Assembly: GCA_030646755.1 (NCBI GenBank)
Contig: JAUSKU010000092.1
Span: forward strand, 14,270-78,269
Origin: Deltaproteobacteria bacterium
GTDB lineage: Bacteria; Desulfobacterota; JAENJC01
DNA: 64,000 nt
Direction of reading: 5' to 3'
The notes under the pieces were generated by a model. It was not told the DNA's origin, did not search any database, and worked only from the letters and a program-made list of their open reading frames with translations. Below, piece after piece: positions 1 through 59,143 of this stretch (position 1 is the stretch's first letter; every line of letters starts with the position of its first letter). The position numbers and the translations under genes were made by a program.

Positions 1-651
1 AACAGCATCAAGAACTGGCAGATACTAAAGGAGCACAATAAGCTGGTCGGTTCAAAAATGAACAATATCGTTAAAGCCTTGGGGAATTGCATCTTGCCTA
101 CCGCAGAGCTTGAGAAAGCAGCTATATGGCACGACTCAGGGAAGGCCCATGTGAAGTTTCAGGAATTTTTGTGCGGGGATGATGAGGCAAAAATGAAAGA
201 AGCAATCTGGGCAAAGTCTCCTTTCAGAAACCGAAAACACAAAAGGCCTTATTTCCGGCATGAGCTTGCCAGCGGGCTTGCGGCGCTCCAGAACGGGCAA
301 AGCGACCTTGTGGCATATCTTGCCGCGGCCCATCACGGGAAGGTGCGGCTGTCAATCCGCTCTCTTCCGGGAGAGAAAATACCGGACGACTCAAAGACCC
401 GTTTTGCGCGGGGCATTTGGGAAGGCGATGAACTGCCGCCAACCAAGCTTGCCGACGGTGTGATGATGGACAGGACTGTTCTGGATCTGGAGCCGATGGA
501 AATGGGAACTGGCAAAAACGGCCCCAGTTGGCTTGCCAGAACATTAAAACTGCGGGACGACTATGGACCATTTCGCCTTGCATATTTGGAGGCGCTGTTA
601 AAGGCCGCAGATGAAAGGGGGAGCAGAGAACAGGAGGCAGGCCATGAGTAA
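1..651 (+). CDS. cas3: Cas3 C-terminal HD nuclease domain (5'-partial; gene continues upstream of the window)
   Basis: The reading frame is open from base 1. HD-domain motifs are present: WHDSGKAHVKFQ (HDxGK), RHELASG and AAAHHGK. The stop at 649-651 overlaps the start of the next gene. Its position immediately upstream of csx17-csb1-csb2 matches type I-G loci, where Cas3 carries a C-terminal HD domain. Confidence 0.7.
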   Translation, partial: NSIKNWQILKEHNKLVGSKMNNIVKALGNCILPTAELEKAAIWHDSGKAHVKFQEFLCGDDEAKMKEAIWAKSPFRNRKHKRPYFRHELASGLAALQNGQSDLVAYLAAAHHGKVRLSIRSLPGEKIPDDSKTRFARGIWEGDELPPTKLADGVMMDRTVLDLEPMEMGTGKNGPSWLARTLKLRDDYGPFRLAYLEALLKAADERGSREQEAGHE

Positions 652-2812
652 TACCATCCGACTTGAAGGCTGCCGCCCTGAACCGTTGGCCCATTATCTG
701 AAGGCGCTTGCTGTCTTGCGCCTGGTCGCAGAACAGACAGACAGTGAAGCTGCCGGCTTCTGGGATGGGGACACATTCTGCCTCAACACAAGATTAACTG
801 AACAGGAGTTGGCTGAGTTCTTTCTGAAAGACTACACTCCAACGCCGATCATCGCACCGTGGAACGGTGGTAGCGGTTTTTATTATCAGGAAGAAAAGCT
901 CAAGGATAAAGACCCTATAACTGGCAAGCGGAAAAAGACCGGGCAGCGGAATCAGCCCACAGAGGCAACTAAAACCGTTGAACGATTGTTAAACAGCAAA
1001 TCTGAGCGGCTGTCCAATTATCGGAAAGTTCTTTCTGCAGCAAAACAAACCATTCAGTACTTGGGACTTGACGAAGCACCAAAAGACGACGGTAAATACG
1101 ATTTGCTTACCTCACTTCGGGGACGTTTACCCGAAGAAGCTTTAGCCTGGTTTGATGCAGCTGTATTGTTGGGAACAGAAAAAACCGGTTTTCCCCCGCT
1201 TCTTGGGACGGGTGGAAACGATGGCAATTTAGATTTCAGCAATAACTTCATGCAGCGGATAGTAGACATACTTGATGTAGATAGCGGTACTCCGCAATCT
1301 GAAGCAGTCAAATGGCTTAAAACTGCTCTATTTTCTGCAACAATGCCGGGTTTACAGCGCGACTCGGCAGTTGGACAATTCTACCCAGGTGCCGCTGGCG
1401 GCGCTAACGGTACGGCAGGGTTTGATGCCAAATCAATGCTCAACCCCTGGGACTTTTTACTTATGATAGAGGGTTCATTGGCTTTCGTGGCCGCCTCAAC
1501 AAAAAAACTGGGCAACAGATATGACGGCACCCTCAGTTATCCATTTACGTTCAGAGCTTCAGGTGTTAATTATGCAAGCGCCGATAAAAATGATGAAGAC
1601 CCGCGGGGAGAAATCTGGATGCCACTTTGGGAAAAACCTGCCGGAATTTCTGAAATAATGACGCTGTTTGCTGAAGGTCGAGCCACTGTTAACAGAAGAC
1701 AGGCTGTCAATGGAGTTGATTTTGCCCGTGCCGTCGCTACGCTCGGAACAGATCGTGGAATAACAGCATTCAACCGTTTTGGTTTTCAAAAAAGAAATGG
1801 CAAGGCCTACTTCGCTAATCCATTGGGTCGCTGGAAGGTGAACCCTGTCCCTGAAACCAACCTTATCTCTGAAATCGATGGATGGCTTGACAAATTCCGC
1901 CGCGCTGCATCGGGAGACAACGCTCCTGCAAGTATAGGACGCGCTTTACGAGATGTCGAATCCGCGATAATGGAACTTTGCCGCAGTGGCGCGAAAAGAA
2001 ATGCGCAGGCGCTTTGTATCGCGTTTGGAAAGGCAGAGCAGGCCCTGGCAAGGAGCAGCAGTTTTAGCAAGAAAGCGTTTGTCAAACCTATTCCGCTTCT
2101 TTCTGCAAACTGGCTGACCGCCTGTGATGACAACTCTTTGGAGTTCCGCCTTGCCAGTGCATTGGCTTCTGCGGCTATTCGAGAGAATATGGAACCTGTC
2201 CGAGTGAACAGATGGGTCGGTTGGGATGAAAACGACAAGCCGACCCACGTTGTCTGGGGAGAAGGGCGTTTGACTGAAAAGCTCATCTCAGTATTGGAGC
2301 GCCGCATAATTGACAGCAACAGCGATGATAAATATCAGGCATTCACGGCCTACTCAAGCCGTCCGGCTGAGCTTTCCGATATTGCGGCATTCATTAGAGG
2401 AGAGGTTGACGAAACCAGGCTGGAAGACCTATTGTGGGGGCTTAATCTTATAGACTGGCGCAGTGTTGAATATAAAAATAATCCGAGGGAAGAGGGTCGA
2501 CCTATTCCTATTGCATACGCTATGTTGAAGCTTTGTTTCCTCCCCGGTCTGCTTGACGATATAAAGATTCCCGTTCAGCCTGCCATTATTGCAAGGGCCA
2601 AAGCAGGCGATGCCCCGGCGGCCTCAAGGCTTTCCAGTAACCGCCTGACCGCCAGCGGTTTTGTGCCGAGAGTAAAAGGGATTTCAGAAGATCAGCAGAT
2701 TCTGCGGAGATGCGCTGCAGCCCTTTTGTTCCCGATAAAAAGAGAGGGTATACAGTTATTAGCCGGTATGGTTTTGCAACCAACCCAAAAATCGCAACAA
2801 AAAGGAGAATGA
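644..2812 (+). CDS. csx17: Csx17 / Cas8u2 large subunit of a type I-G (I-U) effector
   Basis: The ORF is 722 aa. An AGGAGG ribosome-binding site at 632-637 sits 6 nt before the ATG at 644, and the ORF-track start at 611 is an upstream extension. It lies between cas3 and the cas7 homologue, and its size fits the Csx17 family. Confidence 0.7.
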   Translation: MSNTIRLEGCRPEPLAHYLKALAVLRLVAEQTDSEAAGFWDGDTFCLNTRLTEQELAEFFLKDYTPTPIIAPWNGGSGFYYQEEKLKDKDPITGKRKKTGQRNQPTEATKTVERLLNSKSERLSNYRKVLSAAKQTIQYLGLDEAPKDDGKYDLLTSLRGRLPEEALAWFDAAVLLGTEKTGFPPLLGTGGNDGNLDFSNNFMQRIVDILDVDSGTPQSEAVKWLKTALFSATMPGLQRDSAVGQFYPGAAGGANGTAGFDAKSMLNPWDFLLMIEGSLAFVAASTKKLGNRYDGTLSYPFTFRASGVNYASADKNDEDPRGEIWMPLWEKPAGISEIMTLFAEGRATVNRRQAVNGVDFARAVATLGTDRGITAFNRFGFQKRNGKAYFANPLGRWKVNPVPETNLISEIDGWLDKFRRAASGDNAPASIGRALRDVESAIMELCRSGAKRNAQALCIAFGKAEQALARSSSFSKKAFVKPIPLLSANWLTACDDNSLEFRLASALASAAIRENMEPVRVNRWVGWDENDKPTHVVWGEGRLTEKLISVLERRIIDSNSDDKYQAFTAYSSRPAELSDIAAFIRGEVDETRLEDLLWGLNLIDWRSVEYKNNPREEGRPIPIAYAMLKLCFLPGLLDDIKIPVQPAIIARAKAGDAPAASRLSSNRLTASGFVPRVKGISEDQQILRRCAAALLFPIKREGIQLLAGMVLQPTQKSQQKGE

Positions 2813-2814
2813 AC

Positions 2815-3783
2815 ATGAGTATTAATCTTGATGCACTGAAAACAGTACCACGCCTGCTTATCGAGGCCGAACTCGCCCCCGTCCAGGGGAGCCGCTTTCA
2901 ACCAACGGGGTTCCCCGACCTTGGCGCCGCAACCTACACCCTGCATGATGGCACGGAGATGTGTCTCGTGGAATCGGCACAGAGCATGGCAAACCGCTTG
3001 GAGGCCGTTTGCTGGGATGGCGCGAATAGTGAGCTGATAGACCCGCTGAAGGGCATCCCATATATTAAGGTTGTGGAGGATGGCAAAACAGTTACAACCT
3101 CCATTCTTGATGCCCATCGGATGAATTCTCCATATATACTTGAAGGCGAAGACAAGAGTTTTTTGGAGACAATCAAAAAAGAAATTAATACAGCCAGTGA
3201 CCGTCCCGTGGATATGAGGGCACTAGCAAAATTTGTCTACAAGTACGACACAAATGCCCTGTTACACGGGATATTCATAGCTAAAAGTGATCTGGCAGGC
3301 GGGAGGTTTAAGATAGCGAGGTCACTCTCTTCTTTTATAGAAGCTCGCGGGATAAATGTAGTGGCATCCGGCGGAGTGAAAAATGACCCTGTTAACCCTT
3401 CCGGCGACACAGCCAAAGGTTACGGCAATGTTCCTTTTCACCGGGATGAGTATACTGCCCAGCAGATTACGGCATACTTCAATCTTGATTTAGCTCAGAT
3501 CCGTGGGTTCGGTTTGGGCGGAAATGCTGAAACTCTGCTGATTACACTGGCATTGTTTAAGATACAAAAGTTTCTACAGGAAGGCCTTCGTCTACGGACT
3601 GCTTGCGATTTGAAAGCAGTGTCAATTCAGGTTAAACAGCCAGCAAACTTCGTATTATCACCTCTCGAAGACCTAGGCATGGAGCTGCCAAAGTTAATTT
3701 CATCCTCGGCTGGTTTCGCAGAACCTAAAGTAACAACAGTAAAGTTTTCTCCGTCTAAGCCGAAAAAGGAGGTCATTGCATGA
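2815..3783 (+). CDS. csb1: Csb1 (Cas7 backbone subunit, GSU0053 family)
   Basis: The ORF is 322 aa. AAGGAG at 2802-2807 precedes the ATG at 2815, and the ORF-track start at 2710 lies inside the csx17 coding region. It carries the glycine-rich RAMP motif RFQPTGFPDLG and sits where cas7 belongs in a I-G operon. Confidence 0.75.
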   Translation: MSINLDALKTVPRLLIEAELAPVQGSRFQPTGFPDLGAATYTLHDGTEMCLVESAQSMANRLEAVCWDGANSELIDPLKGIPYIKVVEDGKTVTTSILDAHRMNSPYILEGEDKSFLETIKKEINTASDRPVDMRALAKFVYKYDTNALLHGIFIAKSDLAGGRFKIARSLSSFIEARGINVVASGGVKNDPVNPSGDTAKGYGNVPFHRDEYTAQQITAYFNLDLAQIRGFGLGGNAETLLITLALFKIQKFLQEGLRLRTACDLKAVSIQVKQPANFVLSPLEDLGMELPKLISSSAGFAEPKVTTVKFSPSKPKKEVIA

Positions 3784-5366
3784 TAGCCATCTCCTTTAAG
3801 TTTACGGGGGGCGGGTATCACGCCACTCCGTGGGGGAGGCATGTGAATGAAGGGGCAGTTGAGTGGCCGCCTTCGCCGTGGCGTATCCTGCGGGCTCTGC
3901 TTGCGACAGGGTATAATAAGCTTGGATGGGAGACTGGAAAGCCGGCATCCGAGGCGACAACCCTCATGGAGAAACTTGCGTCAGCGCCGCCTTCATTTAA
4001 CCTGCCGCCTGCGTCACTTGGACATGCGCGCTATTTCATGCCTGCACCTGAGACAAAGACGAAGATTTTTGACGCCTTTGTTGCCATCTCTCCTGAAGAA
4101 TCATTGGTTGCCATATGGGGCGATGTTGAACTAAGCCCGGATGAGACACAGTTGCTGGAGCGGCTTCTATCATCCCTTTCTTATCTTGGTCGTGCAGAAT
4201 CATGGGTAACTGCCAGCCTGCTCGACAAATGGGACGGCAATGCCAACTGCGTACCTTTAAATGGTCACGATATAAAGGAAGGCCAGCAGGTCCGTTTGCT
4301 TGCTGCGCAACCTTCCGAAGACTATAACTCATGGCGCACCGGATTTATTGAGGCTCAGGGGATAAAAGAGGGTGGTAAGAAGAAGGGTAAAGGTGTTTTT
4401 ACCGTGCCGGAAAGCATCTGGCATGTTCTTCATGCCGATACCGCCGAGCTTCAAAAAGAAGGCTGGTCAGTCCCCCCCGGCAGCCGCTGGGTTGAATATC
4501 TTTGTCCAGACGAGCTGTTTTCCGTCGCATACAGCCCTGTGAGAAAATCCGTGTTCCGTCCCACAGTTGCCCGTTATGCCCTCTCCGGTTCCGTCCTCCC
4601 GTTGTTTACTGATGCTCTCTTTCTTGGTGAACGGATGAGGCAGGCTCTGATGCATCATTCTAAGCGGATTAGCGGGGAAGAACATGCCCATCCTGTCTTT
4701 TCGGGCAAGACTGTGGATGGTAAAGCCGGCAAAGACTCCCATAAACACTCTTTTTATCTACCGGCAGATGACGACGGAGATGGACGGATAGACCACATCA
4801 CGGTATACGCATCCGATGGTTTCGATGATGCAGCTCAAAAGGCGCTTGGCGCTGTCAGGAAACTTTGGGGCAGCAGCGGTCACGATATCTACCTGGCCCT
4901 TGTAGGATTAGGAGAGGGGCCGACATATGGAGGATTCAATGTAAATGATGGGCAGACTCAGCAGCTTGCCGAATCAACGGTATGGGAATCTCGTACTCCT
5001 TTCGTCCTTACCCGACATCTCAAGGTAAAGGGCAGTGAACGTCACGACCCGGATGTTTACAGACGTGCTTACAGACGTGAACTGGAGAAGACACTAACTT
5101 TTGAATTGCAGCGAATTCGTCCGGCCCTGCCGGAAATTCTTAGCATTGAACATATAAACAGCACCGTAAACTCAATCGGAAAGGCAGTTCCGTGGTATAG
5201 CTTCAGACGGCAGCGTACAAAAGGCGGCGGAACCAGGGCGTCATTTCAGGGGCATGGATTTCGGGTAATATTCGCTTCGCCCGTACAAGGCCCTCTCATG
5301 GCGGGTTACGGCTGCCACTTTGGTTTGGGGCTCTTTACCCCAACTACCTTGCAAATTAGAGTTTGA
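3780..5366 (+). CDS. csb2: Csb2 (Cas5-Cas6 fusion, GSU0054 family)
   Basis: The ORF is 528 aa. The N-terminus HATPWG...EWPPSPWRILRAL is characteristic of the GSU0054 Cas5 family. Its start overlaps the csb1 stop as ATGA, and AGGAGG lies at 3765-3770. Confidence 0.75.
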   Translation: MIAISFKFTGGGYHATPWGRHVNEGAVEWPPSPWRILRALLATGYNKLGWETGKPASEATTLMEKLASAPPSFNLPPASLGHARYFMPAPETKTKIFDAFVAISPEESLVAIWGDVELSPDETQLLERLLSSLSYLGRAESWVTASLLDKWDGNANCVPLNGHDIKEGQQVRLLAAQPSEDYNSWRTGFIEAQGIKEGGKKKGKGVFTVPESIWHVLHADTAELQKEGWSVPPGSRWVEYLCPDELFSVAYSPVRKSVFRPTVARYALSGSVLPLFTDALFLGERMRQALMHHSKRISGEEHAHPVFSGKTVDGKAGKDSHKHSFYLPADDDGDGRIDHITVYASDGFDDAAQKALGAVRKLWGSSGHDIYLALVGLGEGPTYGGFNVNDGQTQQLAESTVWESRTPFVLTRHLKVKGSERHDPDVYRRAYRRELEKTLTFELQRIRPALPEILSIEHINSTVNSIGKAVPWYSFRRQRTKGGGTRASFQGHGFRVIFASPVQGPLMAGYGCHFGLGLFTPTTLQIRV

Positions 5367-5396
5367 CGAATTTACCACTGTTCTTTGACAAATGAA

Positions 5397-6165
5397 TATT
5401 GCCTCGGCAAAAGCCACGGCCCCATTGAAGCGACTACATCGAGCGCCTTAGTAATAGGGCGTTCCAGTGATTTCCGTGGCTGAAAAGCCACGGCCCCATT
5501 GAAGCAACGCCATATAAGAGAGATACTTTATTGGAACTTCCAGAATTTCCGTGGCTGAAAAGCCACGGCCCCATTGAAGCATATATTGCGGCATCGCTAT
5601 AGCCGCCCTGCCGGCGGCATTTCCGTGGCTGAAAAGCCACGGCCCCATTGAAGCGAGGCTGGCTTGGTATGCTATTCCGGCCCCTGCCCTCATTTCCGTG
5701 GCTGAAAAGCCACGGCCCCATTGAAGCGTTTCCATGCCGCCGGGTCAATAGTAACAACGTGCTTATATTTCCGTGGCTGAAAAGCCACGGCCCCATTGAA
5801 GCGTTTCCCACATCAAGCAGGCCTCGGAGGTTATAGATATTTCCGTGGCTGAAAAGCCACGGCCCCATTGAAGCGATGAGATTATGGACCTGGAAGAACT
5901 GGATATTTTAATTTCCGTGGCTGAAAAGCCACGGCCCCATTGAAGCGACACTATTCCAAGACTATTTGACAAGGAAGATGTCATTTCCGTGGCTGAAAAG
6001 CCACGGCCCCATTGAAGCAGCACCTGGTGAATAACCACTATGGCCGCGCTGATGTAATTTCCGTGGCTGAAAAGCCACGGCCCCATTGAAGCGTCAAGAC
6101 CAAGGAGCTGTTTGACACTTGCCTGACTCATTTCCGTGGCTGAAAAGCCACGGCCCCATTGACTA
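5397..6165 (+). CRISPR. CRISPR array of 11 repeats (36 bp, consensus ATTTCCGTGGCTGAAAAGCCACGGCCCCATTGAAGC) and 10 spacers of 36-39 bp
   Basis: Repeats start at 5397 (5'-degenerate, tattgcctcggcaaaagccacggccccattgaagc), 5470, 5545, 5619, 5692, 5767, 5839, 5911, 5983, 6057 and 6130 (3'-degenerate, ...CATTGACTA). The repeat has an internal hairpin GTGGCT-GAAA-AGCCAC and ends in ATTGAAGC, which resembles the type I 3' handle ATTGAAAC. That supports transcription on the + strand, in the same direction as the cas genes. Confidence 0.95.
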
Positions 6166-6177
6166 TGACCTCTGCTA

Positions 6178-6954
6178 CTATTTAAATATCTCGGCAAAGA
6201 ACATCCTCATCGCCTCCCAAGAGCGTCTATCGGCCTTTTCATCATATGCGACACCCTTGGATTTATCATTTTCAGACTCAGGATTGGTAAAGCTGTGGAC
6301 CGCACCGCCGTAAACTACAACCTGCCAATCCACCCCGGCCTTGCGCATCTCATCCTGAAAGGCCGCCATCTGCTCTGCTGTGACATAGGGGTCGTCCCCG
6401 CCATGAAGGACCAGGACCTTCCCCTTGATATTCGCAGCATCCTTTGGATCAGACGTATCAAGACCACCATGGAAGCTTACAAATCCTGCAAGGGGAGCGC
6501 CACTTCTCGCCAGTTCAAGGATGGTAGTCCCTCCAAAACAGTACCCTATTGCTGCCATCCGCTTTGTATCGGTCAATTCATGTTTCCTGAGAACCTCAAG
6601 CCCTGCATTGGCGCGCTCACGCATCAGCTTCCTGTCGCCCCTGTATTTGCCGGCCAGCGCTCCAGCCTCTTTTGCGTCCTTTGCAACCACTCCCTTCCCG
6701 TACATATCAAGGGCAAAGGCCACGTACCCGAGCCTGGCCAACTGCTCCGCACGCCTCTTCGAATACGCGTTATTCCCCCACCATTCATGAACAACCAGGA
6801 TGCCCGGCCGCTTCCCCTTGATGGAGGCGTCATAGGCAAGATAACCCTCCAGTACCGTGTCCCCATGCTTGTATTCAATAGTTTCAGTGCGCAGCTCGGC
6901 CCCGGCATTAACTGACCATAAACATAAGAAACATATTATCAGCAGATATCTCAT
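6178..6954 (-). CDS. secreted dienelactone hydrolase family protein
   Basis: The ORF is 258 aa with an N-terminal signal peptide. The alpha/beta hydrolase and dienelactone hydrolase motifs GYCFGG and HG are present. Confidence 0.8.
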   Translation of the reverse strand: MRYLLIICFLCLWSVNAGAELRTETIEYKHGDTVLEGYLAYDASIKGKRPGILVVHEWWGNNAYSKRRAEQLARLGYVAFALDMYGKGVVAKDAKEAGALAGKYRGDRKLMRERANAGLEVLRKHELTDTKRMAAIGYCFGGTTILELARSGAPLAGFVSFHGGLDTSDPKDAANIKGKVLVLHGGDDPYVTAEQMAAFQDEMRKAGVDWQVVVYGGAVHSFTNPESENDKSKGVAYDEKADRRSWEAMRMFFAEIFK

Positions 6955-7089
6955 AAAGACCTCCTTTTATTTACGTCAATTTTACACTTGAATTACCATC
7001 CGCGCAAAGTTCGGTGAAGGAGGTTTATTGGGAATGAGTAGAGGCGGATATTAACGGCAGTTAGTAGGGTGTTTATGAGTTCTTCGGCT

Positions 7090-7140
7090 TTGCCTCAGAA
7101 TGACAAACACACGACTGTCATTCTGAGCGAAGCGAAGGGT
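7090..7140. repeat. palindromic element GTCATTCTGAGCGAAGCGAAGGGTCTCA (CACCCTGAG..GAAGGG family)
   Basis: A longer palindromic copy lies at 39075-39135 (gtcaccctgagtgaagcgaagggtctaagattcttcgcttcgctcagaatgac). The motif also appears inside both MITE copies (ccgttcaccctgagcttgtcgaagggt). Confidence 0.65.
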
Positions 7141-7158
7141 CTCATACTTGAATGTTGC

Positions 7159-7875
7159 CTATTGATATTTTCTGTATCTGTATCTGTATCTTATCTTAGG
7201 TATCATCATCAGGCTCTGCCTCATTATCCTGCTGTTAAAAGTAGACTGGCCGACGGTCCTGTCCTCAAATATTATGGGAAGCTCCTTGATCCTGAAACCC
7301 TTTCTGTGGGCCATGAAAAGTATTTCCTGAAGGATAGAGGGTCCTGTTGAGATAAGGTTATTTAGGTCTACTGCCTCTAAAACCTCTCTTCTGAATATCC
7401 TGAACCCGGAAGTGGCGTCTTTGTAGGGGAGGCCCAGGACAAGCCTTATATATAGGTTTGCACCCTTGGTTATCAATTGCCTGAGGGGTCCCCTCCCTGT
7501 CTCCCCCCCACCTTTCACCATTCTGGAGCCTATTAGCAGATCGCAATCTCCCATCTCTCTTAAAAAGCCTGAGATATAGGACGGATTGTGGGAGAAGTCC
7601 GCATCCATCTCTATGACAAACTCCACGCCATGCTTGACCGCATACTGGAAACCTTCTATTCCCGCAGTCCCCCTACCCCTCCGCCCTATGCGCCTCAGAA
7701 GATGGACCCTGGGGTCTCTTTTGGAGTACTCCTCCACGATCTTCCATGTCCCATCCGGGGAGTCGTCATCCACGACCACCACGCCTACATCATCCCCCTG
7801 GGCTAATATCTCGGTTATAAGCCTCTCTATATTTCCCGACTCGTTATAGGTCGGGACCATTGCCATAGCCCTCAT
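7159..7875 (-). CDS. GT2 family glycosyltransferase (polyprenyl-phosphate sugar synthase-like)
   Basis: The N-terminus PTYNESGNIE...VVVVDDDSPDGT is a typical GT2 and dolichol-phosphate mannosyltransferase-like opening. The C-terminal RYRYRYR is encoded by a (TCTGTA)3 hexanucleotide repeat. Confidence 0.8.
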   Translation of the reverse strand: MRAMAMVPTYNESGNIERLITEILAQGDDVGVVVVDDDSPDGTWKIVEEYSKRDPRVHLLRRIGRRGRGTAGIEGFQYAVKHGVEFVIEMDADFSHNPSYISGFLREMGDCDLLIGSRMVKGGGETGRGPLRQLITKGANLYIRLVLGLPYKDATSGFRIFRREVLEAVDLNNLISTGPSILQEILFMAHRKGFRIKELPIIFEDRTVGQSTFNSRIMRQSLMMIPKIRYRYRYRKYQ

Positions 7876-8984
7876 TTATGGACCCACTTCTCAAGCCTCT
7901 TTACCGCATCATATACCTCATCGACAGTGATAGTATTCATGCAGTTCACTTCCTTTTCGCAGTGCTTCTTGTAGCATGGAGCGCAGTCCACCTTCGGGGT
8001 TATCTTTTCCCCCCTTCCATATAACTCAATCTCCTGGGAGCAGGTGGAGCCAAAAATGGCAAGGACCTGCTTCTTTAATGCGATGGCGATATGCATCCCA
8101 AGGGTGTCCCCTGTCACAACCACGTCGCAGCCGTTGACAATCCCGCAGAATTCGAGGAGCGAGTTGTCAGAGCCAGTATCAATGGCCTTTCCCTTGGACC
8201 TTGAGAGTATCTCCTGGTTCTTCTCTTTTTCGGCCTTCCCTCCGAGAAGCAGGACCTTAACATGCCTTTCCTTGGCAAATCTTTCGATAAGAGCGACGTA
8301 ACCTTCGGTAGTCCAGTCCTTGTGCGCAAAGACCCCCCCTGCCCCGGTATTCAGCCCGATAACCATGTCTTGCTTCGTAACGCCAAAAGATTCAAGCTTC
8401 TTTCTTCCCCACTCCAGGAACCTTTCAGGGACCTCAAGGACATAATCATCCTTATGATAGTCAAGTTTGAGGGCATCAAAAATCAGCTCCTGATAAGCCT
8501 TCCTGTTCTGAAAGAATTTGAGTTCATCGGAGAGCCCCAGGGAAAAGTAATACTCCTCTTCCGGGTTAAGGGGATAAACCGTCCCAAATGGAGAAAGGCC
8601 TATACCCAGCTTCTCATGGGCAATGGTTGTCATGGCAAGGGCAGCCACCCTCGGCTCCTTGTCAAGTGATATGAGGACATCAAACTCCTCCACAGCTAGC
8701 CTTGCCAGCGCTGAGGCATCATATACAAGGAGGGTATTAATAAATGAGTTATAGCGCAGGAGATCGGCAACAGCAGGGTCTGTCACCCATGTGATATGGG
8801 AATGAGGATATTTCCTCTTGAGGCCGTGAAGTATAGGGGTGGTCCTCAGGACATCACCCATGGCTGCGTGTTTCAGGACCAGGATCCTTACACCCATAGA
8901 CCTGTAATCCTCGCACCCTTCACACATCCTTCCGAACTTGCAGGGTTTCTCTCCAAGATAATATATGCAGTCAAGTCTTATCAT
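7872..8984 (-). CDS. GT9 family glycosyltransferase (heptosyltransferase-like) with an N-terminal Cys-rich extension
   Basis: The ORF is 370 aa and carries the GT9 motifs LKHAAMGDVLRTTP and TGDTLGMHIAIAL. Its 4-bp overlap with the upstream GT2 gene suggests an operon. Confidence 0.75.
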   Translation of the reverse strand: MIRLDCIYYLGEKPCKFGRMCEGCEDYRSMGVRILVLKHAAMGDVLRTTPILHGLKRKYPHSHITWVTDPAVADLLRYNSFINTLLVYDASALARLAVEEFDVLISLDKEPRVAALAMTTIAHEKLGIGLSPFGTVYPLNPEEEYYFSLGLSDELKFFQNRKAYQELIFDALKLDYHKDDYVLEVPERFLEWGRKKLESFGVTKQDMVIGLNTGAGGVFAHKDWTTEGYVALIERFAKERHVKVLLLGGKAEKEKNQEILSRSKGKAIDTGSDNSLLEFCGIVNGCDVVVTGDTLGMHIAIALKKQVLAIFGSTCSQEIELYGRGEKITPKVDCAPCYKKHCEKEVNCMNTITVDEVYDAVKRLEKWVHK

Positions 8985-9000
8985 TAAAGAACCTCTTTTA

Positions 9001-9145
9001 TAGATTTATCTCGCAAAGGCGCAAAGGCCGCAAAGTGTTTTTTGACACTGATTCACACTGATTTTAACATGATTTTCACTGTGCAAATCATAAGGAATCT
9101 GTGGTTATCTGTGTCTAATGCTTCCTCTGCGTCTCAGCGGTAAAT
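9001..9145. repeat. intergenic element of about 130 bp (TTGACACTGATT ... ATCTGTG ... CTCTGCG..CAGCGGTAAAT), copy A
   Basis: It is homologous to 40182-40310, sharing tttgacactgatt, aaatcata, atctgtgt and ctctgcg..ctgcggtaaaa. Related CTCTGTG/CACAGAG arrays lie at 39141-39190 and 56478-56560. Confidence 0.65.
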
Positions 9146-10228
9146 TTAATCTTTTTTCAGCTTAATCAAAAACAGGGACATAATTAAAATCAATGGTCCC
9201 GAAAATAGCGCAGGTATAGGGACTGACATTGATTCCATTGCAACCGCAATCCCTGCCGGTGAGGCAACCCATCCAACTACTGCCATTCCAGCGCCTATCT
9301 TGAATCCGGTGCCTATCCTGGAATCCACAGAAAACCAGACAATCAGCATAAGGATACCATAAAAAGAGACCGCAGTGTTATAGAAAACAGTTGATATAAG
9401 GCCTGTAAAAAAGCCTATGGGAAATAAGATAAGCAAGGCAAGAGATAAGGCAAATGCCGATAATGTGAACAAGAATATGGTCCTTTCCATCCTCCTGTCC
9501 CATAAAAGACCGGCAAATATGGCTGATACCGCATGGACGACGCCGTTCCAGAACCATCGCCCTTCCCATGTATGCCTGTAAAGCTCCTCCCTCTTGATCT
9601 CCAGGTGAAAAACAAAGGAATCAATTGCTACGAGAGCTGCAAGAAATAAGACAATTTTCAGGTATCCGCCGTGAAACTCACACGGGTCAGCGGATGGATG
9701 GATATCGGCCTTAGAGGACAAGCAGAGGGAGCCTATTATGACGGTAACGATCCCGTTTATCAGGGCAATCCGCTCAGGCATGGTTATAAAACCACCCATA
9801 AGATTGGCTGCAAGATATACCACGGCCATGATCCATCCTGCGGCGGTTCCACGCTTTTTGGCAGGCCAGGCCTCTACAACCCTTACAACAAGGACGCCAT
9901 TGATTCCCATCAGAAGGCCGATAGCAATGAAGAACGGAGTCAGAAGCCTGTGGTCATAAATAGTAATGGAATAGACAGCGGCAAATCCCTGGAGAATAGA
10001 TAAAAAGCAGGCTAGATTAAAGACCTTTCTCAAGGAAATTGAATATCTATCCAGAAGATACCCTGTCAAAATAGAGAGCGATGCGCCTGTAAGGGCCATA
10101 AGCCCAAGAGGGAGTCCCAGGGATTCTATGGATAGACCGAACCTTTTTTCAACCATACCGAGGAGGCTGAATTGAACAAAGGTTATATAGAAAATGAAGT
10201 TTGCAGAAATGAGGGAGGCGAGGGGCAT
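9146..10228 (-). CDS. polytopic membrane protein, MFS-like transporter
   Basis: The ORF is 360 aa with about 10-12 hydrophobic segments. No specific motif was recognised. Confidence 0.5.
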   Translation of the reverse strand: MPLASLISANFIFYITFVQFSLLGMVEKRFGLSIESLGLPLGLMALTGASLSILTGYLLDRYSISLRKVFNLACFLSILQGFAAVYSITIYDHRLLTPFFIAIGLLMGINGVLVVRVVEAWPAKKRGTAAGWIMAVVYLAANLMGGFITMPERIALINGIVTVIIGSLCLSSKADIHPSADPCEFHGGYLKIVLFLAALVAIDSFVFHLEIKREELYRHTWEGRWFWNGVVHAVSAIFAGLLWDRRMERTIFLFTLSAFALSLALLILFPIGFFTGLISTVFYNTAVSFYGILMLIVWFSVDSRIGTGFKIGAGMAVVGWVASPAGIAVAMESMSVPIPALFSGPLILIMSLFLIKLKKD

Positions 10229-11148
10229 CAGTTAAGTCCAGTCCATATTCCATAGATAAACCCTGCCGAAAGTATTATCCAGGTCAGCACGAATGTCTGT
10301 ATGGTCCCAGCTGAGGATGCTGTCATTGTGGGAATATCCTGAGGGGATACGGAAAGCCTTGTTACAATTCCATTTACCTTCGGTATGAGGAGGAGAGAAA
10401 TGGCAGATATCGCAGGAAGGATATGAAGCGCAAGGCCGATAAGTATGAGGCCGAAAGCAGAATATAATATCGCCCGGTACAGGACCACCCCTCTTTCAAG
10501 TCCCAATATAACTACGAGATTCCTCTTACCAGTCTCTTTATCAGCCTCAAAGTCAGGAAATTCGTTTACAGTAATGATCGCTGAGGAGAATAAGCCGATG
10601 ATTATCGATACAAACAGCGCGTCGAGAGTAAAGGTACGGGCCTGGCTGTAGTATGCGGTCATAAGGATGAAGGGACCGAAGTTCAGCCCTATGAATAACT
10701 CGCCCAGCCCCCGATATGCAAACTTGAACGGTGGTGCGGAATAAAAATATCCCGAAAAAGCGCCTGTAATGGCAAGGAGCAGTATAGTAAACCCTGAGAT
10801 ATATGCCAGGATGCAAAGGGGTATGAAGCCGATTGCAAAGGATGCTATGGCAACATTTCTTATGGCAACGGGGCTCAAAAGGCCTTCAATGATGACCCTC
10901 GTCCCGCCGCTGAAAGGGGTCTGAACCTTGTTTATGACATCGGTTTTAAAGATATAGTCGTAGTAATCGTTTATAAGGTTCGTCCCTATGTGGAAGGCCC
11001 AAATGCCTGAAATGGCAAGGATGAAATTTGTGAATGAAAAGGGATGGCCGCTTCGCAGGGCCAAAAGCAGACCTGTTGATGCCGGGATGAAACTGACGAT
11101 GAAGAATGCCCTGTAAAAACCTATGGCCCTGAGCCAGGACTCAATCAT
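10228..11148 (-). CDS. UbiA family prenyltransferase
   Basis: The ORF is a 306-aa membrane protein with the Asp-rich NDYYDYIFK motif typical of UbiA prenyltransferases. Confidence 0.7.
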   Translation of the reverse strand: MIESWLRAIGFYRAFFIVSFIPASTGLLLALRSGHPFSFTNFILAISGIWAFHIGTNLINDYYDYIFKTDVINKVQTPFSGGTRVIIEGLLSPVAIRNVAIASFAIGFIPLCILAYISGFTILLLAITGAFSGYFYSAPPFKFAYRGLGELFIGLNFGPFILMTAYYSQARTFTLDALFVSIIIGLFSSAIITVNEFPDFEADKETGKRNLVVILGLERGVVLYRAILYSAFGLILIGLALHILPAISAISLLLIPKVNGIVTRLSVSPQDIPTMTASSAGTIQTFVLTWIILSAGFIYGIWTGLN

Positions 11149-12707
11149 TAGAATCTCAACCTGAACTCGCCAACCAGATTTGCCGCATCCCCCGCACCCT
11201 TTCCAAAGTAATCACCGGTAACAAAGAGATGACCTCCGTAGAGGGAGAAGTTCACGTCCGGTGTGAAGTAATATTCAACTAAGCCGTCCAGTTCGAAGCC
11301 AATGTCGGATGAGTCTGTAACAGGATTTGGTTCGCTGGCCTTCAGGTATGCACCTCCGAAATAGAAGCGGTGCCTTGGAAGGCCTGTGTAGTCCCAGGAA
11401 AGCATGGCAAATGTAGTGTTCTCAAGGCCTCCTGTACCAAAGCTGTAATATCCTTTATTTGTGCCTATTGGATGCGGGCCTGGTTTTATATTCAGCATAC
11501 CGGGAACACCGGCACCCGGAGAAAGGTATTCATATACCTCCATATACTTTCCGATATATCTTTCAGTATATCCCTCACCGGTTCCAAAGTTGTTGTCAGG
11601 TGCAAAGAACCCTTCATAGTCAGTGGTCTCAGGATCATCTCCACTCCCGTAACCTGTAGAAAGGGCGATCCTGCTTGTCTCTGACATCTTGTAATCAACC
11701 TTTCCAAATAGGGCTAATCCCTTTATCTCTATATCCTCCTTTGCGGGGTTACTCGCATAGACATTCCCCCAGACATAAGAGCCTTCCAGCTTCGCCGTCA
11801 CTCTTTCATATTGCTTCTCTAACGCCACACCAAGGGCAGCCATATAACTCTCCTGCCCTTCGTAGTCTACCTGTGTAAATCCGGGCAGCAGATAAAGCGG
11901 TGAAAAATCGTTAAGGTCACCGGGCGCCTCGGAGATATGCATCTTGTTCAGCAGACCGAATAACTCCACCTCCAATGGGGTCTTTCTTTTCACATAGGCA
12001 ATATATGTGTCCTCATCATCATTGAGGGGTGAGCTCATCTCGGCATTCTCACCTTCCCACTGCCTTGTGTGCATTATTCCGATTTCATACTTTTCTCCCG
12101 GATAATAGAACCTGAAGCCGTCATGCCGGTTCCCAAACAGCAGGCCGTTCCCGATCTGCATATCCTGCCTTCCTATCCTGCCGCGCAAGCGAGACGGGTA
12201 AAGGCCTATGTCCATATAAAGCTGCTTGAACTCTACCTCCACGCTGTCGAACTTGTTTACAGTATCGCTATTCTGTCCCTCAAATATTGGAGATTGGTTC
12301 CCCCATACGGCATCCTCTATTTCCATGTCTACTATGAGCCTTGCCATAGAGTAAAAATCTGTCTCAGTATTTAACTGGAGCCGGTGGTCCCACCAGCCGT
12401 AATCATGACTTGTGGTCGATCCCTTCTCATAGGCCTTCAGAAGCTTTCCCCCCGTGTTTGTATAGTTGTTGGCGGTATTCACCTGGATCTGGGCCCTGTT
12501 CCTGTACTCTCCGCTTATCCTGAACCTTGAAACAGCCTCGTTGGCCGTCTCATTCTCCTTCTCTTTAAGCCTTTCGTTAAGCTCAGCAACCTGCTTTTCA
12601 AGGGAATCGAGCCTCTCCTCGAGATAGCTATCTTCCGCCATAGAAGCGCAAGGCGTCAGCATGATAAAAAAAATTAAAAACAGTATCTCAATCGTTGCCA
12701 TGATCAT
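11148..12707 (-). CDS. outer-membrane beta-barrel protein (porin or export-channel-like) with an N-terminal coiled coil
   Basis: The ORF is 519 aa. It has a signal peptide (MIMATIEILFLIFFIMLTPCASMA), an EERLDSLEKQVAELNERLKE coiled coil and a C-terminal aromatic residue (…RLRF), which is a hallmark of outer-membrane proteins. Confidence 0.55.
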   Translation of the reverse strand: MIMATIEILFLIFFIMLTPCASMAEDSYLEERLDSLEKQVAELNERLKEKENETANEAVSRFRISGEYRNRAQIQVNTANNYTNTGGKLLKAYEKGSTTSHDYGWWDHRLQLNTETDFYSMARLIVDMEIEDAVWGNQSPIFEGQNSDTVNKFDSVEVEFKQLYMDIGLYPSRLRGRIGRQDMQIGNGLLFGNRHDGFRFYYPGEKYEIGIMHTRQWEGENAEMSSPLNDDEDTYIAYVKRKTPLEVELFGLLNKMHISEAPGDLNDFSPLYLLPGFTQVDYEGQESYMAALGVALEKQYERVTAKLEGSYVWGNVYASNPAKEDIEIKGLALFGKVDYKMSETSRIALSTGYGSGDDPETTDYEGFFAPDNNFGTGEGYTERYIGKYMEVYEYLSPGAGVPGMLNIKPGPHPIGTNKGYYSFGTGGLENTTFAMLSWDYTGLPRHRFYFGGAYLKASEPNPVTDSSDIGFELDGLVEYYFTPDVNFSLYGGHLFVTGDYFGKGAGDAANLVGEFRLRF

Positions 12708-12715
12708 TCCTTAAG

Positions 12716-13201
12716 TCATCGAGAACAAGACGTAAGGTTTAAGAACCTTTCGTACTTTTCCCCGTTTGCAGTAACCTCTATCTCCCTCTCAGTCTCACCT
12801 ATTCTGTTAATGGTGATCCTCAGGCATTCAGCAGGTATCGCCTCTTCGACATTTGATGCCCATTCCAGGGCGGAAACGCCATCGCCATATAGATATTCCC
12901 TGTATCCAATCTCTTCCAATTCATCAAGGTCTGAGAGCCTATAAAGATCGAAGTGATAAAGGGGAATTCTTCCTTCGTGGACGTTCAGGATTGTAAAGGT
13001 GGGGCTCCTGACGTAAGATTCCTTAGATACTTCAAGCCCCTGTGCAAGCCCCTGAATCAGACAGGTCTTCCCAGCCCCCAGATCACCGTCAAGGGCTATG
13101 ACGTCTCCAGGTTGGCAAAGTCTGCCTATTTTGATCCCCAGCTTCCGGGTCTCTTCAGGACAATGACTGACCACTGACCACCGACCACTGACCACTGTCA
13201 T
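12716..13201 (-). CDS. tsaE: tRNA threonylcarbamoyladenosine biosynthesis protein TsaE
   Basis: GDVIALDGDLGAGKTCLIQGLAQGL carries the Walker A motif in TsaE/YjeE context. The annotated N-terminus runs through the GACCACT heptamer array, so the true start may be the internal GTG. Confidence 0.8.
   Translation of the reverse strand: MTVVSGRWSVVSHCPEETRKLGIKIGRLCQPGDVIALDGDLGAGKTCLIQGLAQGLEVSKESYVRSPTFTILNVHEGRIPLYHFDLYRLSDLDELEEIGYREYLYGDGVSALEWASNVEEAIPAECLRITINRIGETEREIEVTANGEKYERFLNLTSCSR
13168..13196. repeat. (GACCACT)n heptamer tandem array, site 1
   Basis: The sequence is gaccactgaccaccgaccactgaccactg. It sits at the 5' end of tsaE and the 3' end of the CBS gene. Confidence 0.9.
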
Positions 13202-13685: not shown

Positions 13686-13774
13686 CGGTGGTCAGTTGAA
13701 CTATTGATTTAATTGCAATTGCCGACCACTGATCACTGACCACTGACCACTGACTTTATTGCATAAGGTATCTT
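13686..13774. repeat. inverted pair of heptamer arrays: (AGTGRCC)n ... 27 bp ... (GACCACT)n, site 2
   Basis: The left array is agtgaccggtggccagtggccggtggtcagt and the right is gaccactgatcactgaccactgaccactgac. It lies between the CBS gene and nnr. Confidence 0.9.
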
Positions 13775-29558: not shown

Positions 29559-29703
29559 TTCTGAACCCTCCTTTTTATGGCTTCATGGCAATTTAGAAAA
29601 ACCGCTGGATACCGAAAATAAAAATGCCCTTCCCGTAAATTTACAGGGAAAGGCATTTTATACCCACCCGGGTATAAATAAAGATCATTAACGACGGTGC
29701 TAT

Positions 29704-29764
29704 GAGTTGAGTTGAGTTGAGTTGAGTTGAGTTGAGTTGAGTTGAGTTGAGTTGAGTTGAGTTG
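29704..29764. repeat. (GAGTT)12 pentanucleotide microsatellite
   Basis: The tract is a perfect tandem gagtt repeat. It lies 146-206 bp upstream of the lipoprotein start codon at 29558 and 70 bp downstream of the coiled-coil gene stop. Confidence 0.95.
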
Positions 29765-29785
29765 CAGTATGTATGCCATCTTTAT

Positions 29786-29830
29786 TCCCCTCACCCTAAC
29801 CCTCTCCCACAAGGGGCGAGGGGACTTTCC
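29786..29830. repeat. GC-rich palindromic element, copy 2 (TCACCCTAACCCTCTCCC-ACAA-GGGGCGAGGGG)
   Basis: It shares the core CACCCT(A/G)ACCCTC(T)CCC...GGGGCGAGGG with copies 4 and 5. Confidence 0.75.
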
Positions 29831-29833
29831 TTT

Positions 29834-30145
29834 TTACGCATGAACCGCCTTGCCCTTTATCTGCTTCACTTCTCTCGACGTTTCCAGCAATGCATCAGCA
29901 AGGGCGTTGACAGTAGTCTTTACATCGGACACATCGTCTTCCAGGACATCCATCCGGCCTTCGAAGTTATCCATTCTGCCTTCGAAATTGTCCATTCTGC
30001 CTTCGAGCCTGTCCATCCGGCCATCAAGTCTCTGTTGACCTTCTTTAAGAATAGTGACATCTTCTTTAAGCTCAAACTGGCCCTTTTTCAAGTCACCAAT
30101 GTCAGCCTTTATGTCCAACAGGATATTTATGATCCGTTCTTCCAT
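29834..30145 (-). CDS. small coiled-coil protein with heptad EGRMDNF repeats
   Basis: The ORF is 103 aa. It contains RMDRLEGRMDNFEGRMDNFEGRMDVLE, a 7-aa tandem periodicity reflecting a 21-bp DNA repeat. Confidence 0.5.
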   Translation of the reverse strand: MEERIINILLDIKADIGDLKKGQFELKEDVTILKEGQQRLDGRMDRLEGRMDNFEGRMDNFEGRMDVLEDDVSDVKTTVNALADALLETSREVKQIKGKAVHA

Positions 30146-30230
30146 ACATACACCTGTGTTTTTATATCCTTAAACTCGAATATATGTCAAGTTTTTTTAT
30201 CACCTAAAATAGAGGTTGATCTCCCGTTTT

Positions 30231-30332
30231 CCTCCTCCCCCTTGATGGGGGAGGATTGAGGTGGGGGTGAGGAACTATCGATAAGGTGCCCCCTCCCCTT
30301 CATCCCCTCCCGCCAGGGGAGGGGAGTTATTG
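30231..30332. repeat. GC-rich palindromic element, copy 3 (two stem-loops)
   Basis: It contains cctcccccttgatgggggagg and ccctccccttcatcccctcccgccaggggagggg. Confidence 0.7.
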
Positions 30333-59085: not shown

Positions 59086-59143
59086 GTGAGTGAGTGAGTG
59101 AGTGAGTGAGTGAGTGAGTGAGTGAGTGAGTGAGTGAGTGAGT
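59086..59143. repeat. (GTGA) tetranucleotide microsatellite, about 14 units
   Basis: The tract is a perfect tandem repeat. It lies between the vapC fragment and the helicase-nuclease gene, 527 bp upstream of the start at 59670. Confidence 0.95.

What the first reader, a model, noticed from the sequence alone, without database searches (positions are those of the whole stretch)
1..6165. Type I-G CRISPR-Cas locus without an adaptation module: the array starts 30 bp after csb2 and its first repeat has lost its 5' half
The sequence shows the order cas3(HD C-terminus)-csx17-csb1-csb2 and then an 11-repeat array. In the canonical type I-G (I-U) loci described in the literature, a cas4-cas1 fusion and cas2 lie between csb2 and the array. 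Here there is no room: csb2 stops at 5366 and the first repeat-like unit begins at 5397. That first unit (tattgcctcggc-aaaagccacggccccattgaagc) retains only the 3' two-thirds of the consensus. This is what a deletion with one endpoint inside a repeat would leave, so the deletion would have removed cas4/1-cas2 and the leader. The far end is equally constrained: the last repeat is 3'-degenerate and a convergent hydrolase gene stops 12 bp beyond it. The array therefore has no recognisable leader on either side. This would leave an interference-only, adaptation-dead system whose crRNA transcription must come from read-through of the cas operon. Alternatively the adaptation genes lie upstream of cas3, outside the window.
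Basis: partly seen in the sequence, partly recalled or inferred. Interest (0 to 1): 0.7.

Follow-up and report, generated by a model that had tools for sequence, protein, structure and literature searches.

The report
Adaptation-less type I-G CRISPR island
This is a compact bacterial CRISPR immune locus that kept its DNA-cutting genes and its spacer array but lost, through a deletion of about 2.3 kb that sister strains share, the genes and leader needed to record new infections; this is a familiar kind of loss, here mapped to the base.

Summary
The window holds cas3g (3' end), csx17/cas8g, csb1/cas7g and csb2. An 11-unit CRISPR array starts 31 nt after the csb2 stop. It ends 12 nt before a convergent dienelactone-hydrolase gene. 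No cas1, cas2 or cas4 lies in the 64 kb window or directly upstream of cas3, where the neighbour is bioA.

Very close relatives (Csb2 84-94% identical) carry csb2, cas4/cas1, cas2, a leader of about 200 nt, and then the same repeat. Loss of about 2.3 kb is therefore well supported. Two other assemblies share the identical junction.

One detail is wrong. The first unit has not lost its 5' half. It is a whole repeat, joined at its first base, with a shared 2-nt loop deletion and lineage-specific substitutions.

New findings:
- The whole locus is an indel of about 8.1 kb between bioA and the hydrolase gene. A relative has the empty site.
- The far boundary cuts the last repeat after nt 33.
- The cas genes are under purifying selection.
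- Differing first spacers, and a compensatory stem change fixed in every repeat, argue against a frozen array.

"Adaptation-dead" remains untested. This is an ordinary kind of loss, documented in unusual detail.

The parts
1..651 (+). 3' end of cas3g (helicase-nuclease, C-terminal HD domain). The full 806-aa gene is on the identical contig L001.
   Evidence: NCBIfam TIGR02621 cas3_GSU0051 (E 2e-54) and cas3_HD. L001 is 100% identical over window 1-5433.
611..2812 (+). csx17 / cas8g, the large subunit. Segment 829-1825 is recombinant relative to the closest loci.
   Evidence: TIGR04113 E 5.6e-219. Mosaic structure.
2815..3783 (+). csb1 / cas7g, the backbone subunit.
   Evidence: TIGR02570 and PF09617. 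Gene start taken from the called gene on L001.
3780..5366 (+). csb2, the Cas5-Cas6 fusion and pre-crRNA endonuclease.
   Evidence: TIGR02165 E 3e-51. Columns invariant across the 23 aligned sequences are by definition retained in the window protein, among them H513 in the C-terminal GYGCHFGLG motif.
5380..5398 (+). Conserved 19-nt element GTTCTTTGACAAnTGAATA that follows csb2 in related I-G loci. The deletion's left breakpoint lies at its last base.
   Evidence: Found at the equivalent place in L002, L003, L141, L143, L016, L008 and L009. Homology to L002 ends at 5398.
5398..5431 (+). First array unit (U1). It is a complete but decayed repeat of 34 nt, with a 2-nt loop deletion and 3 substitutions in the 5' arm. 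Its hairpin is weakened.
   Evidence: Alignment A2. Fold energy -8.4 against -15.2 kcal/mol for the consensus repeat. Not detected by Rfam CRISPR-DR16, unlike the other 10 repeats.
5432..6129 (+). Ten unique spacers (36-39 nt) and nine perfect 36-nt repeats. The repeats start at 5470, 5545, 5619, 5692, 5767, 5839, 5911, 5983 and 6057.
   Evidence: Rfam CRISPR-DR16 hits lie on the + strand.
6130..6165 (+). Terminal repeat. It matches the consensus to nt 33 (6162). The island boundary lies at 6162|6163.
   Evidence: Homology to the empty site in L145 begins at 6163.
6163..6177 (.). Remnant of the native bioA-hydrolase intergenic spacer.
   Evidence: Aligns to the 29-nt spacer of L145.
6178..6954 (-). 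Dienelactone-hydrolase gene. It is a flanking host gene that is convergent with the cas operon, not part of the system.
   Evidence: PF01738, E 2e-48, full-length match. Syntenic with L145.

Best explanation
The region is an island of about 8.1 kb that carries the interference half of a type I-G CRISPR-Cas system: cas3g, cas8g/csx17, cas7g/csb1 and csb2, plus an 11-unit array. It sits between bioA and a dienelactone-hydrolase gene in a chromosome annotated by its submitter as a Deltaproteobacteria MAG.

It derives from a canonical I-G locus by a deletion of about 2.2-2.3 kb. That deletion removed cas4/cas1, cas2, their promoter-like site and the whole leader of about 200 nt. The left breakpoint lies at the end of a conserved 19-nt element just 3' of csb2. 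The right breakpoint lies at the first base of a CRISPR repeat. That repeat (U1) has since decayed. The distal end of the array is a repeat cut after nt 33 at the island boundary.

Shown:
- the anatomy of the locus;
- the presence/absence comparison with close relatives;
- the shared junction in three haplotypes;
- purifying selection on the cas genes;
- the empty site in a relative.

Inferred:
- The interference module is still functional.
- The pre-crRNA is made by read-through from the cas operon. Csb2 cuts it 4 nt 3' of the 7-8 bp stem, giving crRNAs with an 8-nt AUUGAAGC 5' handle.
- No spacer has been added in the canonical way at U1 since its 2-nt deletion arose, because that deletion was never copied into repeat 2.
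- The array has nevertheless changed since the deletion, by recombination at repeats or by acquisition machinery encoded elsewhere.
For: No adaptation genes:
- None in the window.
- bioA lies upstream of cas3.

Comparison with canonical relatives:
- L002, L003, L141, L143 and L004 have csb2, cas4/1, cas2, leader and array.
- Homology to L002 ends at window 5398.

Shared junction:
- L005 and L142 have the identical junction, and U1 carries the same 2-nt deletion in all three loci.

Selection:
- dN/dS among the deletion-type loci is 0.06-0.34 for the cas3 3' part, csb1 and csb2 (0.25-0.45 for csx17), and every cas ORF that is complete on its contig is intact.
- Csb2 retains the family's invariant columns, including H513.

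Repeat and processing:
- The repeat folds into an 8-bp hairpin. Eight nt, ATTGAAGC, lie 4 nt past the stem.
- This matches the Csb2 cleavage geometry measured for Thioalkalivibrio type I-G (PMC9638904).
- Orientation on the + strand is supported by Rfam CRISPR-DR16 and by the leader position in L002 and L144.

Transcription:
- No promoter-like or terminator-like site lies between csb2 and U1.
- The promoter-like site of the canonical locus lies in the deleted segment.

Empty site:
- L145 has bioA and the hydrolase gene 29 nt apart, with synteny on both sides.

Array turnover:
- First spacers differ in all three deletion-type loci.
- The derived U-A stem pair is present in all 11 units of the window.
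Against: - No expression or interference data exist. Read-through and activity are inferred.
- The rest of the genome could not be retrieved, so cas1/cas2 elsewhere cannot be excluded.
- Only 3 kb upstream of cas3 was seen, while the source contig is 78.5 kb.
- Gene trees do not separate deletion-type from canonical loci. A single origin of the deletion therefore rests on the shared junction, the shared 2-nt deletion and the shared A at the variable position of the element, not on phylogeny.
- Whether the 8.1 kb indel is an insertion here or a deletion in L145 is not resolved.
- No spacer target was found.
Confidence: 0.75

Rival explanations
1. The locus is not adaptation-dead. Cas1-Cas2(-Cas4) encoded elsewhere in the genome still adds spacers to this array in trans, at an intact internal repeat rather than at the decayed first unit.
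For: - First spacers differ in the three loci that share the junction.
- All repeats of the window's array carry a derived compensatory G-to-A change absent from L002, L005, L142 and L144. Serial duplication of one founder repeat is the simplest way to produce this.
- All 10 spacers are unique.
- Trans use of acquisition machinery is documented for other systems (abstract of PMC8092290).
Against: - No cas1/2/4 lies in the 64 kb window.
- Among more than 8000 Cas4/1 homologues, the only close ones (87% identity or more) come from other samples.
- The leader is gone.
- Insertion at repeat 2 would leave spacer 1 unchanged, yet spacer 1 differs between lineages.
- The 2-nt deletion of U1 was never propagated.
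Confidence: 0.3
2. The locus is a decaying, non-functional remnant of a type I-G system.
For: - The adaptation genes, the leader and the promoter-like site are lost.
- The first repeat is degenerating and the terminal repeat is truncated.
- No spacer targets were found.
Against: - All four cas ORFs are intact.
- dN/dS is 0.07-0.17 between the window and L005.
- Csb2 retains the family's invariant columns.
- Nine repeats are perfect, with a compensatory change that restores a Watson-Crick pair in the stem.
Confidence: 0.1
3. The csb2-array adjacency is an assembly artefact, for example a contig mis-join at repeats.
For: Short-read assemblies break at CRISPR repeats. L001, L005 and L142 all end in the array.
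Against: - The same junction, with lineage-specific point differences, is present in the source contig and in three further contigs assembled from three different sequencing runs. One of these (L001, SRR13727527) is 100% identical to the window and may derive from the same reads.
- The junction sequence upstream of U1 is unique sequence, not repeat.
Confidence: 0.02
4. Array-after-csb2 is the ancestral state, and the relatives gained cas4/cas1-cas2-leader by insertion.
For: The cas genes are mosaic and the modules recombine.
Against: - The canonical order is found in progressively more distant relatives (L004 at 69% Csb2 identity; L008, L009 and L016 at about 37%) and in the literature (PMC10333696).
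- U1 carries derived defects.
Confidence: 0.03

Closest known systems
Canonical type I-G (formerly I-U) CRISPR-Cas, e.g. Geobacter sulfurreducens GSU0051-0058, Thioalkalivibrio sulfidiphilus, Bifidobacterium, Mycobacterium innocens
   Same: The effector and nuclease genes are the same: cas3g with a C-terminal HD domain, csx17/cas8g, csb1/cas7g and csb2. The repeat is 36 nt with a 7-8 bp stem, and an 8-nt handle starts 4 nt 3' of the stem. The array is co-oriented with the cas genes.
   Different: There is no cas4/cas1 fusion, no cas2 and no leader. The array abuts csb2 with a 31-nt gap. The first repeat is decayed and the last is truncated.
Sister loci L002, L003, L141 and L143 (metagenomic, Csb2 84-94% identical)
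   Same: The cas3-csb2 genes are near-identical. They share the 19-nt post-csb2 element and the same repeat family.
   Different: They retain about 2.2-2.3 kb holding a promoter-like site, cas4/cas1, cas2 and a leader of about 198 nt. Their repeats have the U.G wobble form of the stem, whereas the window has U-A.
CRISPR-Cas loci that naturally lack adaptation modules (Tn7-associated I-F3/I-B, type IV, many type III, VI-B)
   Same: Interference genes plus an array, without cas1/cas2. Spacer variation between strains despite this (abstracts; PMC12669027).
   Different: Those are established lineages, often with changed function: no Cas3, or association with a transposon or plasmid. This locus keeps Cas3. 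It is a recent deletion allele that co-exists with the intact allele among close relatives.

Membership tests
Type I-G CRISPR-Cas | Cas8g/Csx17 large subunit | tested here: met
   TIGR04113, 729 bits against a cut-off of 150, full length.
Type I-G CRISPR-Cas | Csb1/Cas7g and the Csb2 (Cas5-Cas6 fusion) subunits | tested here: met
   TIGR02570 (113 bits, cut-off 38), TIGR02165 (175 bits, cut-off 45) and PF09617. Csb2 invariant columns are kept.
Type I-G CRISPR-Cas | Cas3g helicase with a C-terminal HD nuclease domain | tested here: met
   The window fragment matches positions 666-853 of TIGR02621 and cas3_HD. The 806-aa gene on L001 has DEAD, Helicase_C, Cas3-like_C_2 and Cas3_HD at residues 631-705.
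Type I-G CRISPR-Cas | Cas4-Cas1 fusion and Cas2 in the locus | tested here: not met
   No tblastn hit in the 64 kb window. bioA lies upstream of cas3 and the array lies 31 nt after csb2. This is a partial I-G locus: the effector module qualifies it, and the adaptation module is absent.
Type I-G CRISPR-Cas | 36-nt hairpin repeat processed by Csb2 4 nt 3' of the stem to give an 8-nt 5' handle | tested here: inconclusive
   The sequence geometry fits (against PMC9638904). Cleavage itself was not tested.
Functional CRISPR array | Leader with promoter and integration signals upstream of the first repeat | tested here: not met
   The 198-nt leader conserved in L002 and L144 is absent. No promoter-like site lies between 5000 and the first repeat on the + strand.
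Functional CRISPR array | Regularly spaced identical repeats with unique spacers | tested here: met
   Eleven units with spacing of 72-75 nt and 10 unique spacers.

The most novel reading that the evidence does not exclude
The deletion allele may be maintained in the population as an interference-only 'free-rider'. Under this reading it avoids the cost of carrying an active integrase. Its array is refreshed not by its own acquisition but by homologous recombination at repeats with arrays of adaptation-competent kin.

A related possibility concerns how the deletion arose. Cas1-Cas2 may itself have caused it, by joining a free 3' end downstream of csb2 to the leader-repeat junction. That would explain why the breakpoint sits exactly at the first base of a repeat.
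Probability: 0.15. Interest if true: 0.65.

Novelty: new member of a known kind. Interest (0 to 1): 0.3.

Why it matters
Partial CRISPR-Cas loci without adaptation genes are common, but how they arise is rarely resolved. Here the intact allele, the deletion allele and an empty site are all available among close relatives. The loss can therefore be mapped to the base.

The locus is also a natural case of a leaderless type I array that still looks selected. Its cas genes are under purifying selection, and a compensatory stem change is fixed in every repeat. It could be used to ask whether such arrays are expressed by operon read-through. It could also be used to ask how their spacer content changes without a local integrase.

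None of this changes what is known about the type I-G mechanism.

Tried and rejected
1. Metagenome scan with the 19-nt element. Only 1 of 120 loci had cas context, so it gave no survey of junction types.

2. Repeat scan of the GTDB representative genomes. It found the repeat family in Planctomycetota, Nitrospira, Thermoanaerobaculales and a Nitrosopumilaceae MAG, but not the source genome. Other arrays or cas1 in the same genome could therefore not be checked.

3. Search for a Cas4/1 from the same NCBI MAG through its accession block. The cluster listing returned no accessions, so the result is uninformative.

4. Spacer targets. There were no hits in GenBank phages. The only plasmid hit was another CRISPR array. 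Four IMG/VR scans and a self-match search of the window all found nothing.

5. Two 9-mers are shared between the array's left and right flanks: CTCGGCAAA direct and TGTTCTTTG inverted. I considered them as a duplication or recombination-site signature and rejected that. The right copy lies in the native C-terminal coding sequence of the hydrolase. It is also present, with one mismatch, in the empty-site relative L145.

6. The TTGACA inside the 19-nt element as a -35 box for the array. No acceptable -10 lies at 16-18 nt, here or in any relative.

7. The first spacer as a leader remnant. L005's first spacer shares CTC-CTATTATATCTCC with the L002 leader (shuffle p about 0.001). The window's first spacer does not, and the offsets differ. 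This is left unexplained.
Full report
**What is in the window**

NCBIfam and Pfam assign window 1-651 to the C-terminal HD-containing end of the type I-G helicase-nuclease Cas3g. They assign 611-2812 to Cas8g1/Csx17 (E 5.6e-219), 2710/2815-3783 to Csb1/Cas7g, and 3780-5366 to Csb2.

A CRISPR array follows. Its 19-nt repeat core occurs 11 times, against 0.01 expected by chance. Unit spacing is 72-75 nt. Nine units are perfect 36-mers, ATTTCCGTGGCTGAAAAGCCACGGCCCCATTGAAGC. The last unit (6130-6165) differs only in its final three bases. The first unit is aberrant.

ORF 6178-6954 on the minus strand is a full-length dienelactone hydrolase. It stops 12 nt beyond the last repeat. The rest of the window is ordinary chromosome, with dnaE, glyQS, purL, ppdK, glgB and others.

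tblastn with Cas4/1 and Cas2 of the closest relatives finds nothing anywhere in the 64 kb.

**Source and upstream side**

The window's Csb2 is identical to NCBI protein MDO8446744.1. It comes from a MAG labelled Deltaproteobacteria bacterium, on a 78.5 kb contig.

An independent Logan contig (L001, run SRR13727527) is 100% identical to window 1-5433 and extends 3 kb further left. It shows the full 806-aa cas3. Upstream of a 194-nt spacer lies a class-III aminotransferase, not cas1, cas2 or cas4.

More distant parts of the genome could not be examined.

**The deletion**

Exact-protein look-ups of the nearest Csb2 relatives gave two architectures.

- Canonical type: L002 and L003 (Csb2 84% identical), L141 and L143 (91-92%), and L004 (69%). 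These have csb2, about 135 nt, the cas4/cas1 fusion and cas2. L002 continues with a leader of about 200 nt and a 20-repeat array of the same repeat with one base different. L144 gives the leader-repeat junction of the lineage closest to L141.
- Deletion type: L005 (93%) and L142 (93%). These have exactly the window's arrangement.

Nucleotide homology between the window and L002 runs through csb2 and stops at window 5398. The multiple alignment shows all loci sharing a 19-nt element, GTTCTTTGACAAnTGAATA, just after csb2. After it, the canonical loci continue into a conserved intergenic region. That region holds a promoter-like TTGCAA-16-TATGAT. The three deletion-type loci instead continue directly into repeat sequence.

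The missing segment is 2,275 nt in L002 coordinates (7690-9964). Because the canonical order is also found in much more distant loci (L008, L009, L016) and in the literature, loss is the parsimonious direction.

**The first unit is a whole repeat**

Aligned with intact repeats and with the leader-repeat junctions of L002 and L144, the first unit matches the repeat from its first base, ATT. All three deletion-type loci share a 2-nt deletion (TG) in the loop.

- L142 otherwise differs from the consensus by one substitution (ATTCCCGTGGC--AAAAGCC...).
- L005 and the window share GT-to-TC in the 5' arm.
- The window has a further T-to-G.

The right breakpoint is therefore at a leader-repeat or spacer-repeat boundary, overlapping the element by a single A at 5398. 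It is not inside a repeat, and the 5' half is mutated rather than lost.

The changes weaken the hairpin. Fold energy is -15.2 kcal/mol for the consensus, -12.9 for L142's U1, -8.8 for L005's and -8.4 for the window's. Rfam's CRISPR-DR16 model detects the other ten repeats on the + strand but not U1.

The 2-nt deletion is shared by three diverged haplotypes, yet repeat 2 is consensus in all of them. Canonical integration duplicates the first repeat. It follows that no canonical leader-proximal integration has occurred at U1 since the 2-nt deletion arose. This last step is an inference from the established integration mechanism.

**The far end and the island**

A hydrolase homologue that is 90% identical lies on NCBI contig JBFONE010000098.1 (L145). 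There the hydrolase gene and bioA are convergent, with only 29 nt between their stop codons.

Both flanks are syntenic with the window. L145 matches window 6163-8988 at 88% and 9165-12712 at 85%. It matches L001 48-1057 at 85%. Alignments place the boundaries 1-2 nt after the bioA stop and between window 6162 and 6163.

The whole I-G locus is therefore an indel of about 8.1 kb between bioA and the hydrolase gene. Its right boundary cuts the terminal repeat after nt 33, and 6163-6177 is native intergenic sequence. This explains the '3'-degenerate last repeat 12 bp from the hydrolase'.

Homology among L001, L005 and L002 begins only about 25-35 nt upstream of the cas3 start. The upstream neighbours differ: bioA, a HIT-family gene and a small ORF. 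The cassette thus sits in different contexts in different strains, which makes insertion here more likely than precise deletion in L145. This is not proven.

**Is it still in use?**

All cas ORFs are intact. Between the window and L005, dN/dS is 0.07 for cas3, 0.17 for csb1 and 0.17 for csb2. Across all deletion-type pairs it is 0.06-0.34 for the cas3 3' part, csb1 and csb2, and 0.25-0.45 for csx17.

Csb2 keeps the columns that are invariant across 23 aligned sequences, including H513 in the C-terminal GYGCHFGLG motif.

The repeat folds into an 8-bp stem. The last 8 nt, ATTGAAGC, begin 4 nt beyond the stem. This is the geometry at which Thioalkalivibrio Csb2 cleaves to leave an 8-nt handle (PMC9638904).

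No sigma-70-like promoter and no terminator-like site lies between csb2 and the array. A promoter-like site lies upstream of cas3 on L001. Read-through from the cas operon is therefore the most economical source of pre-crRNA. This is inferred, not shown.

No spacer matched phage, plasmid or IMG/VR sequences, or the window itself.

**Is the array frozen?**

Two observations argue that it is not.

1. The first spacer is different in each of the three deletion-type loci. No spacer is shared among any of the arrays examined.
2. The repeat stem shows stepwise compensatory change. Distant relatives have CCGCGGC/GCCGCGG. L002, L005, L142 and L144 have CCGTGGC/GCCGCGG, a U.G wobble. The window has CCGTGGC/GCCACGG, a U-A pair, in all ten full repeats, in the 3' arm of U1 and in the terminal repeat.

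A point change cannot reach every unit of a frozen array. The array was rebuilt or homogenised after the deletion allele arose.

The cas genes are themselves mosaic. The window's csx17 segment 829-1825 is far closer to L002 than to its otherwise nearest relatives. Gene distances do not separate deletion-type from canonical loci (dS 0.05-0.24).

Given that mosaicism, recombination at repeats with other arrays, or between U1 and downstream repeats, is a sufficient explanation. Acquisition machinery acting in trans is the alternative. The data do not decide between them. 'Adaptation-dead' is thus unproven for the cell. The evidence does indicate that U1 itself is not used as an integration site.

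**Comparison with what is known, and verdict**

By its effector module this is a type I-G locus. By its missing Cas4/1-Cas2 and leader it is a partial one. Loci without adaptation modules are a well-known phenomenon.

What is specific here is the resolution:
- the intact allele, the deletion allele and an empty site are all seen among close relatives;
- both array ends coincide with rearrangement breakpoints at or in repeats;
- there is evidence of continued selection.

I rate this a new member of a known kind, of modest interest. The most novel reading not excluded is an interference-only allele maintained alongside adaptation-competent kin and refreshed by recombination. A related possibility is that the integrase itself made the deletion at the leader-repeat junction. 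I give this about 15%.

Noticed in passing
window 829-1825 (inside csx17/cas8g): The large-subunit gene is a mosaic. The window's Csx17 is only 63% identical to that of L005, although Cas3 is 98.8%, Csb1 96% and Csb2 93% identical. It is 90% identical to L002's Csx17. L005, L142, L141 and L143 are nearly identical to each other in this gene (dS 0.03-0.09, against 0.6 to the window). A segment of about 1 kb of cas8g has been swapped by recombination.
   Followed up: partly
window 5380-5398; also L002 7671, L016 4518 and 5341 (-), L008 3428 (-), L009 5637 (-), L004 13136: A conserved element, GTTCTTTGACAAnTGAATA, sits just 3' of csb2 and 5' of cas4/cas1 in I-G loci from several phyla. In L004 it lies in the leader instead. 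In L016 two copies 823 nt apart flank a partial cas4 duplicate. It contains TTGACA, but no -10 box follows at 16-18 nt. Its function is unknown.
   Followed up: partly
window repeats 5470-6165; L002, L005, L142, L144; L006-L020: There is stepwise compensatory evolution at one base pair of the repeat stem: C-G in Planctomycetota and Nitrospira loci, U.G in the sister loci, and U-A in every unit of the window's array.
   Followed up: yes
L005 8034-8071 and L142 6238-6275 (first spacers); L002 9912-9928 (leader): The first spacers of the two other deletion-type loci share the 9-mer ATATCTCCG near their 3' ends. L005's first spacer matches a conserved leader motif (CTC-CTATTATATCTCC against CTCGCTTTTATATCTCC; shuffle p about 0.001). 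The window's first spacer does not. This is unexplained.
   Followed up: partly
L019 (OZ220738.1, Nitrosopumilaceae archaeon chromosome): An archaeal MAG carries the same repeat family and I-G genes in a different order: csb2, cas3, csx17, an array in the opposite orientation, then cas4/cas1. This suggests cross-domain transfer and plasticity of I-G architecture.
   Followed up: no
L014 5821-5848, with L015 and L016 (Nitrospira sp. JZ-3_Bin7): The same MAG has a 40-repeat I-G array on one contig. On another contig it has a single copy of the same repeat next to distantly related cas4-like and cas1-like genes.
   Followed up: no
window 13166-13197, 13724-13754, 34491-34529: Tandem heptanucleotide repeats (CACTGAC, about 4-5 copies) lie at the 5' ends or gene junctions of tsaE, a CBS-domain gene and an unannotated 222-aa ORF. 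A second heptamer, ACGTGAG, lies at 34454-34485. A 7-nt unit changes the reading frame when the copy number changes.
   Followed up: partly
window 29703-29764 and 59086-59144: There are two perfect simple-sequence repeats. (TGAGT)12 lies between a 911-aa surface-protein-like gene (SpaA_4/TbpB_B_D domains) and ORF 29762-30259. (GTGA)15 lies just downstream of an rve-integrase (IS-like) transposase gene at 57889-58764.
   Followed up: no
L001 1074-1240, L005 576-780, L002 229-490: Homology among near-identical I-G loci begins only about 25-35 nt upstream of the cas3 start codon. The upstream neighbours all differ: bioA, a HIT-family gene and a small ORF. The cassette is therefore found in different genomic contexts, with no recognisable mobility gene beside it.
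   Followed up: partly
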